NCBI GenBank assembly: GCA_030018455.1
Contig: JASEFU010000002.1
Span: 141,480-205,479, forward strand
Source of the DNA: Dehalococcoidia bacterium
Lineage (GTDB): Bacteria; Chloroflexota; Dehalococcoidia; DSTF01; JALHUB01
DNA: 64,000 nucleotides
Direction: 5' to 3'
The translations under genes and the position numbers were made by a program. This document shows positions 8,229 through 13,194 of the stretch, piece by piece (position 1 is the stretch's first letter; each line of letters starts with the position of its first letter). The notes beneath the pieces are model-generated. The model was given only the letters and a program-made list of their open reading frames with translations. It searched no databases and was not told the origin of the DNA.

Positions 8229-8422
8229 CGTACCGGCGATTCAAATCAGAGGGTACTTACGGTCAGCCGGAGGAGCGGATTTCCTAGACGGACGTCTAGA
8301 CGATTAAACGCCGCGGCCATGGGTGGGATCGGCGTGTCTGTGGTGAGGCCCCGAGCCAGACGGAGCGGGCGACGGGACTCGGGCCCGCTTGCCGGCAGGC
8401 AGACCCGCGACCCTCCGCGGCC

Positions 8423-8890
8423 TTGCGTTTGGACCGCATCTCCACTTTCAGAGGGACGTTGGTGGCAGCCCCACCGTCTTCTACTTCGTTGGGTATCCGG
8501 GACGGGCTGCGGGTGGGCCAACGGGTCACCGCTCAGAACAAGCCGCCTGTGGTGACACCGCCGCCCACACCCAAACCGTCACCCACCACCATGCCGAAGC
8601 CGCCCGCCTGTTCGGGAATATCGTTAACGACTGCGTACCCGCAAGCAGCTCGTGGACCCGTGTCCGGCGACTTCAACAACGATGGGTACGACGATCTGGC
8701 GGTGGGGGTGCCCGGCGAGGATGTGGGCGCCACTGCTGATGTTGGAGTGGCCAGCATCACCTACGGCTCTGCCAGCGGCCTACAGGCGGGCGGGAACCGC
8801 ATGTGGTATCAGGGCCTGGACGGCATCCAGGGTGCTGCCGAGGCGGGGGATTCATTTGGCGGGTTGCCCCTGACCTGCTCGCTGGGCTGA
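8423..8890 (+). pseudogene. FG-GAP repeat protein fragment
   Basis: Two FG-GAP-like repeats (GDFNNDGYDDLAVG; AGDSFGG) then stop; surrounding region lacks clean genes. Confidence 0.25.
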
Positions 8891-9722: not shown

Positions 9723-10274
9723 GTGATGTTTAGGCGGGGGCGCCGCTACTGCGCAGAGTTGCATCGCCTCACCAAGGAATACCGAGTTGAGGGCATCTCA
9801 GCCTCAGCCCGCAAGCTCATCGCGACACACCGGCGAATGCGCCGTCTGCCAGGAGCGGCGGCTACGGCTTGTTTCGGCCGAGAGTGTCCTGCGGTCGCTG
9901 GTTCCTCTGCCCCTCCTGCTCAAGAAGAGAACTGCCGAGACAGCGACCCAAGCGTGGCCTTTGGTCAGCGGCGGAGCGTCCGGAGCGAGTGGGGTCGGTG
10001 GCAGCTGGGTGCGGTTGTCTCGCAGTGGCGGCCTGGTACAATCGCAGAAGTACGTCCGCAACAACCTGCGCCAAATCCCCCTGTGCCGCCGGGAGCCCGT
10101 TCTGCACAATTCGACGTTCTGGGACCACGCTCCCGCATCGCGCGCCGCATGCATCGATGGCTTGTTACCAGCGCCGGGCCTGCAAGAGGAACGGTAGCTC
10201 GAAAAGCAGAGGGTCGGAGAGCTTTCAATACAAGAGGCCGGGTGAACCCCCGGCCTGACTGCGTCTACCGCATG

Positions 10275-10323
10275 TGGAGCGGGAAACGGGACTCGAACCC
10301 GCGACCCTCTGCTTGGGAAGCAG
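10275..10323 (-). repeat. Partial tRNA-Gly 3' half (positions 28-76), displaced att copy
   Basis: 49/49 identity to 3' part of tRNA at 12903-12951. Confidence 0.8.
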
Positions 10324-10337
10324 TGACTGTTGCGGGT

Positions 10338-10667
10338 TCATCCGGCGCGCTCGAGGGCGCGGGCGAGGCGGTCGTGAGGGCCTCGGGACCTAGCGGCGCG
10401 AACGGAGCGCTCGACGTAGGAGAGGGGGCGGCGGTCGGCCTTCGAGGGCCTCCCGGGCTTGCGGGGCTTGGCGGGGATCCCGCGGGTGATGACGCCGGCC
10501 TTGATGAGGGTGACGGCGCGGTGGAGGTTCTGCAGGGCGCGGTCGGCGTCGGGGGAGTTGAGGGCGCGATAGAACAGGCGCTGGAGCTGCTGGCTACGGC
10601 GCCCGTGCTTAAGGGCGTTGAGGTTTCCTCGGGGCGCGCCCGCGCCTGATCGTCTTCCTCCGCGCAT
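10338..10667 (-). CDS. Hypothetical protein of the element (GNLNALKHG motif), basic C-terminus
   Basis: Very high GC3 coding signal; upstream AT-richer leader; start ATG 10665-10667. Confidence 0.45.
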   Translation of the reverse strand: MRGGRRSGAGAPRGNLNALKHGRRSQQLQRLFYRALNSPDADRALQNLHRAVTLIKAGVITRGIPAKPRKPGRPSKADRRPLSYVERSVRAARSRGPHDRLARALERAG

Positions 10668-11223
10668 TTTTGGGGGGTGTTTCTGAATCTGGCGTTTGAT
10701 TGTTTGGGCGGGGCGGGCGCCGTCAAGGGCGCGCGTGAGCGCGGGCCGGAGGCCTCGGAGACCCTTGACGGCGTGGTGGTGGCGACGATCGCGGTCGCCG
10801 TCGCCGCCGTCGACCGTCGGCGGCGACGGCATACCTAACCGCCGCGCCCACTTCCTGCCGCGACGGCGGGCGGCTGCGAGCACGAGGGCGGCCCGCTGGT
10901 CGAGCTAGCTGGTCGTTTCGAACATGGCCCGGGGGCATCCGTGGGGCACCGATACTTTCGGGCCGCCGGAGGGCCGCACCGCCCGCCGGATTGTAGCACG
11001 GGGTGGCTGCTGGCTTCGAGGGGAGCCCGCCGCAGGCGGGACCCGCGAAGCGCCCGCGAGCCGGACGGCGACGTGGGCGCGAGCGGATCAGCCAAAGAGC
11101 GCGCGGCGGGTGGGCGGGCAAGCGCGATACCGCTTTGACGACGACGAACGACGGCAGGCGCGCCGTGCGGTGTGGCGTGGAAGCGGGCCGCGAGAGCGGG
11201 CCGCGCGGGCGGCTCCCGGGCCG

Positions 11224-11463
11224 TCAGGAGGCGGCCTTGCGGGCTGCGCGGGTGATTTCGGGGGGTGTGTCGTCGTCGACGAGCACGGCGGCGCCGGTGG
11301 AGTAGAGGGTGAGTATGAAGCCGCGGGGGTTGTCGGCGAGGTAGCGGTCGGGGTGGCGTTGCGCGGGGAGGTCGGGGCGGTTGAGCTTGACGATGACGGT
11401 GAGGGCGCCGTTGTCGCGGTCGACGAGTACGTCGGTGAGACGGCCGTGTTTGACCTTGAGCAT
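11224..11463 (-). CDS. Hypothetical small protein, immediately downstream of integrase
   Basis: 79 aa, near-100% GC3; 5-bp gap to integrase stop. Confidence 0.45.
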   Translation of the reverse strand: MLKVKHGRLTDVLVDRDNGALTVIVKLNRPDLPAQRHPDRYLADNPRGFILTLYSTGAAVLVDDDTPPEITRAARKAAS

Positions 11464-11467
11464 GTCG

Positions 11468-12346
11468 TCATTGTAGCAGGCGGCCCTGGGCGGCTGCGGG
11501 CCTTCGGGCGATGGGGCTGAAGCGGGCGTGCTGGGCGCGGACGTCGCGTAGGTCCATGTCGACGTATCGCTTCGTGGTGTCGATCTGGCGGTGGCCGAGG
11601 ATTCGTTGGAGGGAGAACACGTCGCCCCCGGCGGTGATGTAGAGGCGGGCGAAGGTGTGGCGTAGGAGGTGGGGGCCGCCGGGGATCCCCGCGCGCTTGA
11701 GGGACCGGCGGACGGCTTGGGAGACGCCTGAGGGGGTGAGGGGGCCTTTGCGCCCGGCCCAGAGGGTGGTTGCGTCTCCGAGGCCGACGAGGGCGGCGAG
11801 GACCTGCGGGCTGACGGGGATTTCGCGCATTCCGGTTTTGCCGGTGACGAGGGTAGCGGGGCCGAGGTGGGCGCGGGAGAGGGTGGCGACCTCGCCGATT
11901 CGGAGGCCGGTGTCGAGTAGGAGCAGCAGCAGGGCGCGGTCGCGGCGGGCTGCGGGGCCGGTGCGCGCTGCTGCGGTGGCGAGCAGGTGGTCGACCTGGT
12001 CGTCGGATAGGGCGCGGGGGAGTAGCTGGCGGCGCCGGGGCGGCGCGAGCTCGAGGGCGGGGTTCGGGACGCCGAGGCGTGCCGAGGCCCAGCGAAAAAA
12101 CGTGCGCCAGACGCGAAACACGTCGTGGCGGCTTTCGGGGGATAGTGGGAGTGCGGCGAGCGCGTTTTCGAGGGGCTCAGGGGCGCTAGGGAGCGCGTGG
12201 GAGGCGTTTTTGAGGGGACGGAGGGCCCAGAGGTAGGCCTGCAGGGTCTTGGGCGCGAGGTTGCGGGCCCTGCAGGAGGCGATGAAGGCGTTGACGGCTG
12301 CCTCTGTGGTCAGGGTTTCGGGCGGTGGCGCTGTTCTACGAGCCAT
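11468..12346 (-). CDS. Tyrosine recombinase/integrase (XerC/D-like)
   Basis: 292 aa; C-terminal RHTFARLYITAGGDVFSLQRILGHRQIDTTKRYVDM (R..H..R..Y catalytic signature). Confidence 0.9.
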   Translation of the reverse strand: MARRTAPPPETLTTEAAVNAFIASCRARNLAPKTLQAYLWALRPLKNASHALPSAPEPLENALAALPLSPESRHDVFRVWRTFFRWASARLGVPNPALELAPPRRRQLLPRALSDDQVDHLLATAAARTGPAARRDRALLLLLLDTGLRIGEVATLSRAHLGPATLVTGKTGMREIPVSPQVLAALVGLGDATTLWAGRKGPLTPSGVSQAVRRSLKRAGIPGGPHLLRHTFARLYITAGGDVFSLQRILGHRQIDTTKRYVDMDLRDVRAQHARFSPIARRPAAAQGRLLQ

Positions 12347-12789
12347 CGGATGAAGCCGGCAGGGTTGCGGATTGCGCGGCGGTCGCCTTCGTAGTAGTCG
12401 CGGACGGCGCGCTGGATTGTGTGCTGTCCGTACTGGGCGACGAAGGCCTCGGCGCCCGCGAAGCCGAACATTGTTCGGAGGTAGTCGACGAATTCGAGTT
12501 CGTCGGGCGAGAGGGGGATCGCGCGCGCGTGCGGGGGCGCGCCCCTCCCCTCCCCCCTTTGTTGAGAGATCCCCTCCCGGGCCCGTTGTTGAGAGAGAGA
12601 GGGATGATCCTCACTCTCTCTCTCAAGATCCAGACCGCGCGCGTGCGCGTGAAGCGGGCGGGGGCGGGCGGGCGCGTCGAGGGGTGGTTTGCGGTCGAGG
12701 TGGTGCGGCTGGCGGGTGTGTGGAGACTGCTGAGCGGGCATTTCGGCCCCCCTTTCGTGGTGTAGCTGAGCCGAGGGTAGCGGGGGCAA
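12310..12789 (-). CDS. Hypothetical protein upstream of integrase (start uncertain; N-terminal half low complexity)
   Basis: C-terminal 70 aa (SPDELEFVDYLRTMFGFAGAEAFVAQYGQHTIQRAVRDYYEGDRRAIRNPAGFIRWLVEQ) has good GC3; overlaps int start by 37 nt. Confidence 0.3.
   Translation of the reverse strand: MPPLPSAQLHHERGAEMPAQQSPHTRQPHHLDRKPPLDAPARPRPLHAHARGLDLERESEDHPSLSQQRAREGISQQRGEGRGAPPHARAIPLSPDELEFVDYLRTMFGFAGAEAFVAQYGQHTIQRAVRDYYEGDRRAIRNPAGFIRWLVEQRHRPKP
12589..12626. repeat. 38-bp palindrome with 13-bp (GA)n/(TC)n arms (TTGAGAGAGAGAG-12nt-CTCTCTCTCTCAA)
   Basis: Perfect 13-bp inverted arms; spacer GGATGATCCTCA contains a 4-bp sub-palindrome; adjacent 11-12-bp direct repeats TTGTTGAGAGA at 12558-12569 and 12585-12597. 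Confidence 0.7.
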
Positions 12790-12902
12790 AGCTTAGCGTC
12801 AAGGGGGTAGTTGGGGAAGAGGCCCCGGCCGTCAAGTAGCTACACCTGGGGGCCGTACGTTGGCCTCTGCGGACTCGAGGCCTCTCCCGGCATTTTAGCA
12901 TG

Positions 12903-12978
12903 TGGAGCGGGAAACGGGACTCGAACCCGCGACCCTCTGCTTGGGAAGCAGATGCTCTGCCAACTGAGCTATTCCCGC
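12903..12978 (-). tRNA. tRNA-Gly (anticodon CCC)
   Basis: 76 nt cloverleaf: acceptor GCGGGAA/TTCCCGC, D-arm GCTC-AGTTGGCA-GAGC, anticodon loop TTCCCAA, T-arm GCGGG-TTCGAGT-CCCGT, discriminator T, CCA encoded. Confidence 0.85.
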
Positions 12979-13194
12979 TCGAATCTCATTGTATGAACGA
13001 CACCCGCGACTGTCAACGGGGTCACGCGGCAGCCCGGCACAAAGCCCACCGGCGCGAAGAGTGACGACGGATAGGCTCCGGGTCACCCGTCGCGCAGCCA
13101 CCTCAGGAACCGCGACGCCTCGACTTCTTTGCGCCATCGCTGACGCGTCTCGACGAGTTCTTCCGTGCTCTCCGCAACGCGGCAGCGGCCGTCG

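What the first reader, a model, noticed from the sequence alone, without database searches (positions are those of the whole stretch)
10270..12951. Minimal integrase element inserted into tRNA-Gly(CCC) with 54-bp att direct repeats
An intact tRNA-Gly lies at 12903-12978. Its 3' half (anticodon stem to CCA plus 5 nt) is exactly duplicated at 10270-10323. Between the copies are a tyrosine integrase (adjacent to the intact tRNA, the classic attL arrangement), two or three tiny high-GC3 ORFs (one with a GNLNALKHG motif) and no cargo. At ~2.7 kb it is either one of the smallest self-contained integrative units or the stump of a larger island.
Basis: seen in the sequence. Interest (0 to 1): 0.55.

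Follow-up and report, generated by a model that had tools for sequence, protein, structure and literature searches.

The report
Tiny virus-derived integrative element in tRNA-Gly
A complete 2.6-kb mobile element with only four genes sits in a glycine tRNA gene of an uncultured Dehalococcoidia bacterium; it belongs to a lineage of equally tiny elements descended from small viruses, and may be the smallest virus-hitchhiking element yet seen.

Summary
An intact tRNA-Gly(CCC) lies at 12903-12978 (minus strand). Its last 49 nt plus 5 nt downstream are repeated exactly (54/54) at 10270-10323, 2,628 bp away.

Four minus-strand genes lie between the repeats:
- orfA
- a 292-aa Xer-like tyrosine integrase with all catalytic residues
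- orf79
- a 109-aa protein with the motif RGGRRSGAGAPRGNLNALKHGRRS

It is not a stump. Its closest relatives (integrase 66-71% identical) form one branch with the same genes and size. One relative (L162) is a 2,650-bp head-to-tail circle or concatemer with an attP-type junction. A second (L163) shows the same junction. A third (L083) is integrated in tRNA-Gly. A real stump of this lineage (P0017 loci) looks different: truncated integrase, no distal repeat.

The integrase, orfA and the motif protein are shared with 12-16 kb virus contigs that encode capsid, portal and terminase. There the motif protein weakly matches small-terminase families.

Shown: a complete, virus-derived, minimal integrative element. 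Inferred (about 0.45): it spreads as a satellite packaged by those viruses. No replication gene, helper or excision of this copy was found.

The parts
10235..10256 (-). Terminator-like GC-rich hairpin just outside the element. It is probably the original terminator of tRNA-Gly, displaced 2.6 kb by the insertion.
   Evidence: 8-bp stem, 7 GC pairs, T-rich tail. The position 14 nt beyond attR is read directly from the sequence.
10270..10323 (.). attR: displaced copy of the last 49 nt of tRNA-Gly plus 5 nt, 54/54 identical to attL.
   Evidence: family D1. Rfam sees a partial tRNA at 10278-10346, 22.8 bits, below its cut-off.
10338..10667 (-). 109-aa 'GN-motif' protein (MRGGRRSGAGAPRGNLNALKHGRRS..., then helices). 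It is related to the N-terminal module of small-terminase-like proteins of related small viruses.
   Evidence: NCBI calls the same 109-aa protein (P0121). The motif is invariant in 30 relatives. hhalign against the virus proteins: 95% probability, E=1.7e-8, over only 29 columns. NCBIfam TerS model: 13.7 bits against a cut-off of 120. No PHROG hit. GC by codon position .74/.60/.85.
10668..11223 (.). Spacer of about 556 bp with no codon periodicity but with sequence blocks conserved in relatives.
   Evidence: flat GC at the three codon positions. (alignment with L162, L083 and L163).
10718..10773 (-). Conserved hairpin with 12-bp stems CGCCGTCAAGGG / CCCTTGACGGCG, about 40 nt upstream of the GN-motif gene. 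Its 3' arm overlaps a sigma-70-like promoter match (10699-10726). It is a candidate operator, origin or packaging site.
   Evidence: stems invariant in the window, L083 and L162; one compensatory change in the inner stem. (TTGACG-16-AACAAT). Absent from IMG/VR.
11224..11463 (-). orf79: a 79-aa protein found only in the 2.6-kb lineage. Function unknown.
   Evidence: Homologues occur in L163/L164, L083, L082 and L162 only, always just after the integrase gene. Strong coding signature, GC .71/.45/.89. No Pfam, PHROG or NCBIfam hit.
11468..12346 (-). Tyrosine integrase, 292 aa, Xer-like (no arm-binding domain). Catalytic residues R149, K170, H226, R229, H252 and Y261 are all present.
   Evidence: R149, K170, R229, H252 and Y261 are invariant and H226 nearly invariant in the 37-sequence alignment A1. 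NCBIfam XerC: 117 bits against a cut-off of 335, so it is not a XerC/D orthologue.
12310..12741 (-). orfA, 143 aa, overlapping the integrase start by 37 nt. Its roughly 70-aa C-terminal helical domain (...RNPAGFIRWLV) always accompanies this integrase group. It is a candidate recombination-directionality or regulatory factor.
   Evidence: 36 distinct homologues, each upstream of the integrase on the same strand. The full length is 51% identical in the P0017 loci. One stored gene call has only the last 53 aa (P0162). No Pfam or PDB relative; the AlphaFold model (pLDDT 70) has no Foldseek match.
12578..12637 (.). Imperfect (GA)n/(TC)n palindrome with 30-nt arms, preceded by two TTGTTGAGAGA direct repeats, inside the N-terminal half of orfA. 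It may be a protein-binding site.
   Evidence: I3, 77% complementary, no gap between the arms. The direct repeats are read.
12898..12951 (.). attL core: the 54-nt repeat lying within and just past the intact tRNA.
12903..12978 (-). Intact tRNA-Gly(CCC). Its 3' half is supplied by the element.
12988..13016 (-). Sigma-70-like promoter (TTGACA-17-TACAAT, 11 of 12 matches) upstream of the tRNA.

Best explanation
The feature is a complete integrative mobile element. Its unit length is 2,628 bp, or 2,682 bp counting both 54-bp repeats. It belongs to a lineage of about 2.6-kb elements that descend from small (12-16 kb) temperate capsid-forming viruses of Dehalococcoidia.

How it integrates. The Xer-like tyrosine integrase recombines a 54-bp attP, identical to the 3' half of tRNA-Gly(CCC), with the chromosomal tRNA gene. 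The element's own copy of that sequence rebuilds the tRNA, and the original 3' half and terminator are displaced to the far end. The reverse reaction gives a 2.6-kb circle. orfA, which always travels with this integrase, probably helps or directs the reaction; this is inferred from its position only.

How it spreads. The element has no recognisable replication, capsid or transfer gene. It keeps the N-terminal module of the viruses' small-terminase-like protein and a conserved hairpin just upstream of that gene. The most likely route is therefore as a satellite: after excision and helper-driven multiplication, head-to-tail multimers would be packaged into capsids of a related helper virus. This resembles PICMI satellites, at less than half their size.

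Status of each step. Shown: the anatomy, completeness, family membership, viral ancestry, and circle or concatemer junctions in relatives. Inferred: the role of orfA, the terminase-like function, helper dependence and packaging. My confidence is about 0.85 that this is a complete, recently mobile minimal element, and about 0.45 for the whole statement including satellite spread.
For: - Exact 54/54 repeats, a rebuilt tRNA and a displaced terminator.
- All four genes are intact with a coding signature, and all integrase catalytic residues are present.
- In a neighbour-joining tree, the integrases of the window, L162, L082, L163/L164 and L083 form one branch nested among integrases from virus contigs.
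- All five carry orfA, integrase and orf79. The window, L162 and L083, whose contigs reach that far, also carry the motif protein.
- L162 (2,808 bp) has a 158-nt terminal repeat, 157/158 identical, at offset 2,650. Gene order is motif protein, half-tRNA core, orfA, integrase, orf79, with no full tRNA. That is an attP junction on a circle or concatemer.
- The L162 core differs by 1 nt from the 3' half of a real tRNA-Gly(TCC).
- In L163 the core is also flanked by element DNA on both sides.
- In L083 the same element end abuts host genes at a tRNA-Gly fragment.
- The integrase, orfA and motif-protein trio also sits on 9-16 kb IMG/VR contigs with major head (phrog_212, 4e-59), portal (phrog_64, 3e-22) and large terminase genes.
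- 13 of 18 virus motif proteins hit the small-terminase family phrog_1889, best E=2e-8. The only NCBIfam family hit by all four motif proteins tested is a small-terminase model.
- Some viruses (L250, L166, L186) encode the window-type N-terminal module as a separate gene.
- Two larger small elements of the same kind, L002 (3,878 bp, tRNA-Thr) and L004 (4,130 bp, tRNA-Phe), carry the same three genes. L004 also carries a head-decoration-like gene.
Against: - No circle, empty site or coverage excess could be shown for this copy. The Logan unitigs simply break 30 nt (k-1) inside each repeat.
- The terminase link for the window protein rests on a motif only. It has no PHROG hit and scores 13.7 bits against a 120-bit NCBIfam cut-off. 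The hhalign match covers 29 columns. There are no PDB or BFVD matches by sequence or fold and no tblastn match in GenBank phages.
- The window protein lacks the C-terminal domain of the virus proteins.
- No helper structural gene is present in the 64-kb window.
- No replication gene was recognised.
- An attP-type junction also arises in tandem chromosomal copies, so L162 does not prove a free circle.
- orf79 evolves fast and dN/dS is uninformative at this GC3.
- The conserved hairpin was not found in IMG/VR viruses.
Confidence: 0.45

Rival explanations
1. It is an autonomous integrative mini-plasmid. After excision the 2.6-kb circle replicates by itself, with orfA, orf79 or the motif protein acting as an unrecognised initiator on the conserved hairpin or the spacer. 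It spreads vertically or by transformation or vesicles, with no virus helper.
For: Circle or concatemer contigs exist in relatives. Proteins with the same motif also sit on 2.44-kb and 2.70-kb circular contigs that have no integrase and no capsid genes (L248, L249). That shows tiny circles with this protein can persist. A conserved hairpin and a 556-bp non-coding spacer could be an origin.
Against: No Rep, primase or helicase signature appears in any of the four proteins. The integrase, orfA and motif protein are shared with capsid-encoding viruses. The integrase-free circles carry an HNH endonuclease; in phages these are known partners of packaging terminases (from my own knowledge, not checked here).
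Confidence: 0.25
2. It is a dead remnant. A larger prophage of the 12-16 kb virus family lost its structural genes by internal deletion, leaving the integration module between intact att sites. It is no longer mobile and is simply inherited.
For: The element is clearly virus-derived and lacks everything needed for independent spread. Only one genomic context is available and no empty site was found. Decay does occur in this lineage: the P0017 loci have a truncated integrase, and the L083 integrase is frameshifted.
Against: The repeats are 54/54 identical and all genes are intact. The same architecture and size persist across a branch that has diverged to 66-71% integrase identity, and that branch has its own private gene, orf79. 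Relatives occur as attP-type circle or concatemer junctions. The true stump in the lineage looks different: no orf79, no motif gene, no attR.
Confidence: 0.15
3. It is an integrative mobilizable element that is transferred by a conjugative system supplied in trans.
For: It is small, has an integrase, sits in a tRNA gene and has no transfer genes, as in minimal mobilizable elements such as Tn5520 (cited in PMC5704250).
Against: No relaxase or mobilisation protein was found in any library. All recognisable relatives of its genes are viral.
Confidence: 0.04

Closest known systems
PICMI (phage-inducible chromosomal minimalist islands, Vibrionaceae; PMC10803314)
   Same: A very small integrative element with an integrase, no capsid or capsid-remodelling genes and no cargo to speak of. 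PICMI fills a normal-sized helper capsid as a head-to-tail concatemer, and L162 shows a head-to-tail junction.
   Different: PICMI115 is 6,110 bp and is called the smallest satellite with characterised activity; this element is 2,628 bp. PICMIs integrate next to fis, encode three core excision and replication proteins and have no terS. This element integrates in a tRNA gene, has no recognised replication gene and has a terminase-like motif protein. No sequence relationship was found. Helper dependence is experimentally shown for PICMI and only inferred here.
PICI / SaPI satellites that carry their own small terminase
   Same: An integrase plus att sites, with a satellite protein homologous to part of the helper's small terminase as the means of redirecting packaging. 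The element's genes are related to those of its presumed helpers.
   Different: PICIs are about 10-15 kb with replication, regulation and often capsid-size genes (PMC10085698, listed; sizes quoted). Here only four genes are present, and the terminase similarity is limited to a roughly 25-residue motif.
tRNA-gene genomic islands as defined by Islander (PMC4383910)
   Same: An intact tRNA gene, a displaced 3' fragment in direct orientation and a tyrosine integrase inside. The element passes every Islander criterion, including the 2-kb minimum length.
   Different: Island sizes peak at 13.6 and 39.9 kb. This one sits at the extreme low end and carries no cargo.
Tycheposons of Prochlorococcus (bioRxiv 10.1101/2020.12.28.424599)
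   Same: Tyrosine-recombinase elements that target tRNA genes, some of which are PICI-like and carry a terS or a capsid gene.
   Different: Tycheposons are described as similar in size to PICIs (10-20 kb), with a 2-4 kb replication module and cargo. No replication module or cargo is present here, and the host phylum is different.
Decayed islets (cis-mobilizable elements, prophage stumps)
   Same: Very small and flanked by att sites.
   Different: Cis-mobilizable elements have lost their integrase (PMC5704250). Here the integrase and all other genes are intact. The genuine stump of this lineage lacks attR and has a truncated integrase.

Membership tests
tRNA-gene integrative element (Islander-type island) | Intact tRNA gene plus a displaced 3' fragment in direct orientation | tested here: met
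   54/54 direct repeat, tRNA scored at 70.9 bits.
tRNA-gene integrative element (Islander-type island) | Tyrosine integrase gene between the repeats, with catalytic residues | tested here: met
   PF00589 6e-21; R149, K170, H226, R229, H252 and Y261 present.
tRNA-gene integrative element (Islander-type island) | Length of at least 2 kb | tested here: met
   2,682 bp including both repeats; the criterion is taken.
tRNA-gene integrative element (Islander-type island) | Excision to a circle and an empty site | tested here: inconclusive
   Not visible for this copy, because unitigs break inside the repeat. Relatives L162 and L163 show attP-type junctions.
Phage satellite (general) | Integrative element lacking virion structural genes | tested here: met
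   no capsid, portal, large terminase or tail gene.
Phage satellite (general) | A gene that hijacks helper packaging or assembly (for example terS) | tested here: inconclusive
   The motif protein shares about 29 columns with the virus proteins. Those proteins hit small-terminase PHROGs at 1e-5 to 2e-8. The window protein itself has no PHROG hit and scores 13.7 of 120 bits in NCBIfam.
Phage satellite (general) | Own replication module | tested here: not met
   No Rep, primase or helicase was found in Pfam, PHROGs or NCBIfam.
Phage satellite (general) | Induction by, and packaging in the particles of, a helper virus | not testable with these tools
   This needs virome reads or experiments. No helper is present in the window.
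PICMI | Integration next to fis, and the three PICMI core proteins | tested here: not met
   It integrates in tRNA-Gly. None of the four proteins has a named family other than the integrase.
XerC/XerD chromosome-dimer resolvase, or elements that exploit Xer at dif | Orthology to XerC/XerD (NCBIfam equivalog cut-off) and action at dif | tested here: not met
   XerC 117 bits against 335; XerD 95 against 330. The target is a tRNA gene.
Phage small terminase subunit (TerS) | Match to a curated TerS family at its threshold | tested here: not met
   NF040601: 13.7 bits against 120. No PHROG, Pfam or PDB hit. No Foldseek match for the pLDDT 76.7 model.
Integrative mobilizable element | Relaxase or mobilisation gene, or an oriT | tested here: not met
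   None was found. An oriT cannot be excluded from sequence alone.
Decayed prophage remnant | Truncated or frameshifted genes, degenerate or missing att site | tested here: not met
   Genes are intact and the repeats identical. Compare the P0017 stump.

The most novel reading that the evidence does not exclude
The 2.6-kb lineage is the smallest family of virus satellites known, less than half the size of PICMI115. It would be reduced to an integration module, one private gene and the N-terminal module of the helper's small-terminase-like protein. It would be packaged as roughly 5-6-mers into the capsids of a previously undescribed family of 12-16 kb temperate capsid-forming viruses of Dehalococcoidia. 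That would set a new lower bound on the gene set a satellite needs.
Probability: 0.3. Interest if true: 0.78.

Novelty: new variant of a known kind. Interest (0 to 1): 0.58.

Why it matters
How few genes does an integrative element, or a virus satellite, need to persist and spread? The PICMI paper asks this directly. Here a whole lineage manages with four genes in 2.6 kb. The lineage has circle or concatemer forms and a clear descent from small viruses.

If helper-dependent packaging is confirmed, this roughly halves the known minimum size of a satellite. It would also show that a fragment of a terminase-like protein can be enough to hijack packaging.

The work also exposes a family of very small (12.4-16 kb) integrase-carrying, capsid-forming viruses in Dehalococcoidia, a phylum whose viruses are barely known.

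If the satellite idea is wrong, the element is still a clean natural example of a near-minimal tRNA-targeting integration module, with a short Xer-like integrase, a 54-bp core and one conserved partner protein. That could be useful as a compact integration tool.

Tried and rejected
- **Circle or empty site for this copy.** The only other record is a Logan unitig from the same sample. Both it and the flanking unitig stop exactly 30 nt (k-1) inside the 54-bp repeat. This is a graph artefact and says nothing about excision.
- **Function of orfA.** The search for homologous proteins found nothing. Pfam on 21 homologues gave nothing. A PDB profile search gave only noise. The single-sequence model (pLDDT 70) had no Foldseek match below E=2.9. 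A full-library phmmer found 18 relatives; two long ones are repeats of the Pfam domain hnRNP_Q_AcD, which is not informative.
- **Function of the motif protein.** No PDB relative. The AlphaFold model (pLDDT 76.7, all helical) gave zero Foldseek hits in PDB and BFVD. tblastn against 50,697 GenBank phages gave no match. No paper contains the motif.
- **Helper in the window.** tblastn with capsid, portal and terminase genes of the related viruses hit only the integrase and orfA.
- **Shared cis site with viruses.** The hairpin pattern has no match in IMG/VR.
- **dN/dS.** About 0.42 for the integrase, and 0.6 to above 1 for orf79. This is unreliable because GC3 is near 0.9 and the divergence is high.
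- **Third tRNA-like copy at 8362-8420.** It is 85% identical over 27 nt, with a different register for the second block and no Rfam hit. I treat it as chance or very old.
- **IME1 elements of Dehalococcoides.** They are 21-28 kb and filamentous-virus-like, and are unrelated.


Full report
**1. The observation**

ARAGORN finds a single tRNA in the 64-kb window: tRNA-Gly(CCC) at 12903-12978 on the minus strand. Rfam confirms it at 70.9 bits. The longest repeat in the surrounding 8 kb is a 54-nt direct repeat, 10270-10323 and 12898-12951, 100% identical and spaced 2,628 bp. It covers the tRNA from the 5' strand of the anticodon stem to the encoded CCA, plus 5 nt beyond. The finding is therefore correct to the base.

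A strong promoter-like site (TTGACA-17-TACAAT) lies just upstream of the tRNA at 12988-13016. A GC-rich terminator-like hairpin lies at 10235-10256, 14 nt beyond the distal repeat. This is what one expects if a 2.6-kb insertion separated a tRNA gene from its terminator.

A Logan unitig from run SRR23186779 is identical to window 10294-12927. The sequence is therefore not an artefact of one assembler. The host is an uncultured Dehalococcoidia bacterium, according to NCBI's name for the identical integrase on a 360,744-bp contig.

**2. Anatomy**

All genes are on the minus strand, reading away from the tRNA.

- **orfA (12310-12741, 143 aa).** It overlaps the integrase start by 37 nt. A stored gene call (P0162) has only the last 53 aa. 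However, the full length is 51% identical in another locus and about 40% in L163/L164, so the long form is real.
- **Integrase (11468-12346, 292 aa).** It matches PF00589 (6e-21) and phrog_1 (1e-40). Residues R149, K170, H226, R229, H252 and Y261 are conserved in a 37-sequence alignment. It is Xer-like but well below the XerC/XerD equivalog cut-offs.
- **orf79 (11224-11463).** It has a textbook coding signature, with GC at codon positions 1/2/3 of .71/.45/.89, against .64/.46/.90 for the neighbouring host acyl-CoA dehydrogenase.
- **Spacer (10668-11223, about 556 bp).** It shows no codon periodicity.
- **Motif protein (10338-10667, 109 aa).** It begins MRGGRRSGAGAPRGNLNALKHGRRS. NCBI calls the same 109 residues.

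No cargo gene is present.

**3. It is a member of a lineage, not a stump**

Protein and DNA searches returned many integrase relatives, a striking number of them on contigs of 1-5 kb. The five closest (66-71% identity) are L162, L163/L164, L082, L083 and the window itself. They form one branch in a neighbour-joining tree. They are also the only loci with orf79, always directly after the integrase gene.

- **L083** has integrase, orf79, the motif protein, a tRNA-Gly 3' half and then host genes. This is the same distal end as in the window.
- **L162** (JGI 3300080942, 2,808 bp) has a 158-nt terminal direct repeat, 157/158 identical, at offset 2,650. Its gene order is motif protein, 54-nt half-tRNA core, orfA, integrase, orf79, and ARAGORN finds no full tRNA. 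That is the attP configuration expected of an excised circle or a head-to-tail concatemer of a 2,650-bp unit. Its core differs by one base from the 3' half of a genuine tRNA-Gly(TCC) found in L251/L254.
- **L163** also shows the core flanked by element DNA on both sides.

A true stump of the same lineage exists and looks quite different. In the P0017 loci (six contigs) an intact tRNA-Gly(TCC) is followed by orfA and an integrase that loses homology after residue about 220. That integrase has no HxxR motif and no catalytic Tyr. The locus has no orf79, no motif gene and no distal repeat before a giant host gene begins.

Two somewhat larger elements of the same kind sit in reference genomes:

- L002: 51-nt repeats, 3,878 bp, in tRNA-Thr.
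- L004: 56-nt repeats, 4,130 bp, in tRNA-Phe.

Both carry orfA, a zinc-ribbon ORF, the integrase and a motif protein. They branch separately in the tree, so reduction happened more than once.

**4. Where it comes from**

The same integrase group (41-50% identity) occurs on IMG/VR contigs of 9-16 kb.

- **L184 (15.5 kb)** encodes a major head protein (phrog_212, 4e-59), a portal (phrog_64, 3e-22), a weak large-terminase match and a motif protein hitting the small-terminase family phrog_1889 at 7e-8.
- **L181** has a 144-nt terminal repeat, giving a 12.39-kb circular genome with capsid, portal, large terminase, integrase, orfA and a motif protein.

Iterative searches over all fetched loci find capsid, portal or terminase genes on 27 loci (many are the same contig fetched from two collections), most of which also have orfA and the motif protein. 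The C-terminal domain of orfA lies upstream of the integrase in 36 distinct sequences. The 2.6-kb lineage is therefore the integration module of these small viruses plus the motif protein and a private gene. L004 even retains a head-decoration-like gene.

**5. The motif protein**

- 13 of 18 virus versions hit phrog_1889, best E=2e-8, and others hit the small-terminase families phrog_370 and phrog_509.
- The only NCBIfam model hit by all four proteins tested is NF040601, 'phage terminase small subunit'. All scores are far below its cut-off: 13.7-20.8 bits against 120.
- Profile-profile comparison of the window's subfamily (30 sequences) with the virus proteins gives 95% probability and E=1.7e-8, but over only 29 columns, which is the N-terminal motif.
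- In viruses L250, L166 and L186 the protein is split. A window-type N-terminal module is one gene, near the integrase in L186. The C-terminal helical domain is a second gene, next to the head genes in L166 and L186 and a few small ORFs upstream of them in L250.
- The window protein itself has no PHROG, Pfam or PDB hit. Its confident helical model has no Foldseek match.

'Terminase-like' is therefore a motif-level inference, not a membership.

The same subfamily also occurs on 2.44-kb and 2.70-kb circular contigs without an integrase. Each of these also carries an HNH endonuclease. In phages this enzyme class is known to partner with packaging terminases; that point is from my own knowledge and was not tested here.

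**6. Other features**

A hairpin with invariant 12-bp stems (CGCCGTCAAGGG / CCCTTGACGGCG) lies about 40 nt upstream of the motif gene in the window (10718-10773), L083 and L162. It has one compensatory change in an inner stem, and a promoter-like match overlaps its 3' arm. It is not present in IMG/VR. It could be an operator, an origin or a packaging site.

A (GA)n palindrome and two TTGTTGAGAGA repeats lie inside the 5' half of orfA.

**7. Mechanism and rivals**

Integration by the tyrosine integrase at a 54-bp tRNA-identical core is as good as shown by the anatomy. Mobility of the lineage is supported by the attP junctions in relatives.

How the element multiplies and moves is inferred. I favour satellite-like spread (about 0.45) for three reasons: there is no replication or transfer gene, all of its genes have viral relatives, and it retains part of the packaging-like protein. 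PICMI sets a precedent for small elements packaged as concatemers.

- An autonomous mini-plasmid (0.25) is the main rival. It is supported by the integrase-free circles.
- A dead remnant (0.15) is disfavoured by the intact genes, the identical repeats and the conservation of the architecture across the branch.
- Conjugative mobilisation (0.04) has no support.

**8. Comparison and novelty**

The element meets every criterion of a tRNA-gene island but sits at the extreme low end of size.

- It is not a PICMI: the integration site and proteins differ, and PICMI115 is 6,110 bp.
- It is not a PICI.
- It is not a tycheposon: those are 10-20 kb with replication modules.
- It is not a XerC/D system.

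I rate it a new variant of a known kind. It is a virus-derived, four-gene integrative element lineage in Dehalococcoidia, and possibly the smallest satellites known. Nothing here is experimentally shown, and the host is uncultured, which limits immediate testing.

Noticed in passing
L181 (IMG/VR 3300022665_000989), L184, L167 and about 20 other loci: A family of very small integrase-carrying, capsid-forming viruses in Dehalococcoidia-type (65-70% GC) DNA. L181 closes into a 12.39-kb circle (144-nt terminal repeat) with major head, portal, large terminase, decoration protein, integrase, orfA and the motif protein. Others are 13-16 kb contigs. As far as I know, that would place them among the smallest genomes with this head and packaging gene set.
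   Followed up: partly
L248 (Logan ERR11489092, 2,701-bp circle, seen in 3 samples) and L249 (ENA ERZ27245776, 2,443-bp circle): Tiny circular contigs (GC 58%) with no integrase. They encode a window-type motif protein followed by an HNH endonuclease (HNH_3, 5e-6) and two or three unknown ORFs. They may be another kind of minimal replicon or satellite.
   Followed up: partly
L251-L256 (P0017 loci): A decayed copy of the same lineage at tRNA-Gly(TCC): orfA is intact, the integrase is truncated after about residue 220, and there is no distal repeat. It lies next to a 3,594-aa host protein with CarboxypepD_reg repeats and was seen on six contigs from several samples.
   Followed up: yes
window 10718-10773: A hairpin with invariant 12-bp stems conserved across the 2.6-kb lineage. 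It overlaps a promoter-like site upstream of the motif gene. A similar hairpin with compensatory stem changes occurs in virus locus L102 at 8833-8883.
   Followed up: partly
window 12540-12640: A (GA)n/(TC)n palindrome (12578-12637) and two TTGTTGAGAGA direct repeats inside the low-complexity N-terminal half of orfA. They may be protein-binding sites.
   Followed up: no
window 8362-8420: Weak tRNA-Gly-like similarity: 27 nt at 85% identity, plus 18 nt at 83% in a shifted register, about 1.9 kb beyond attR. It has no Rfam hit and is probably chance in GC-rich DNA, or a very old att remnant.
   Followed up: partly
L250 226-894, L166 and L186: In some of the small viruses the motif protein is split into two genes. 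The N-terminal module lies near the integrase in L186. The C-terminal helical domain lies next to the head genes in L166 and L186, and a few small ORFs upstream of them in L250. This suggests the protein has two separable functions.
   Followed up: partly
L083 17-884: The integrase of this integrated relative reads in two overlapping frames (17-613 and 249-884). This is either a frameshift mutation or a sequencing error, so this copy may be decaying.
   Followed up: no
L003 8741-11600: Several tandem, diverged copies (units of about 430 and 830 bp) of a small gene block downstream of a related integrase in a Dehalococcoidia genome.
   Followed up: no
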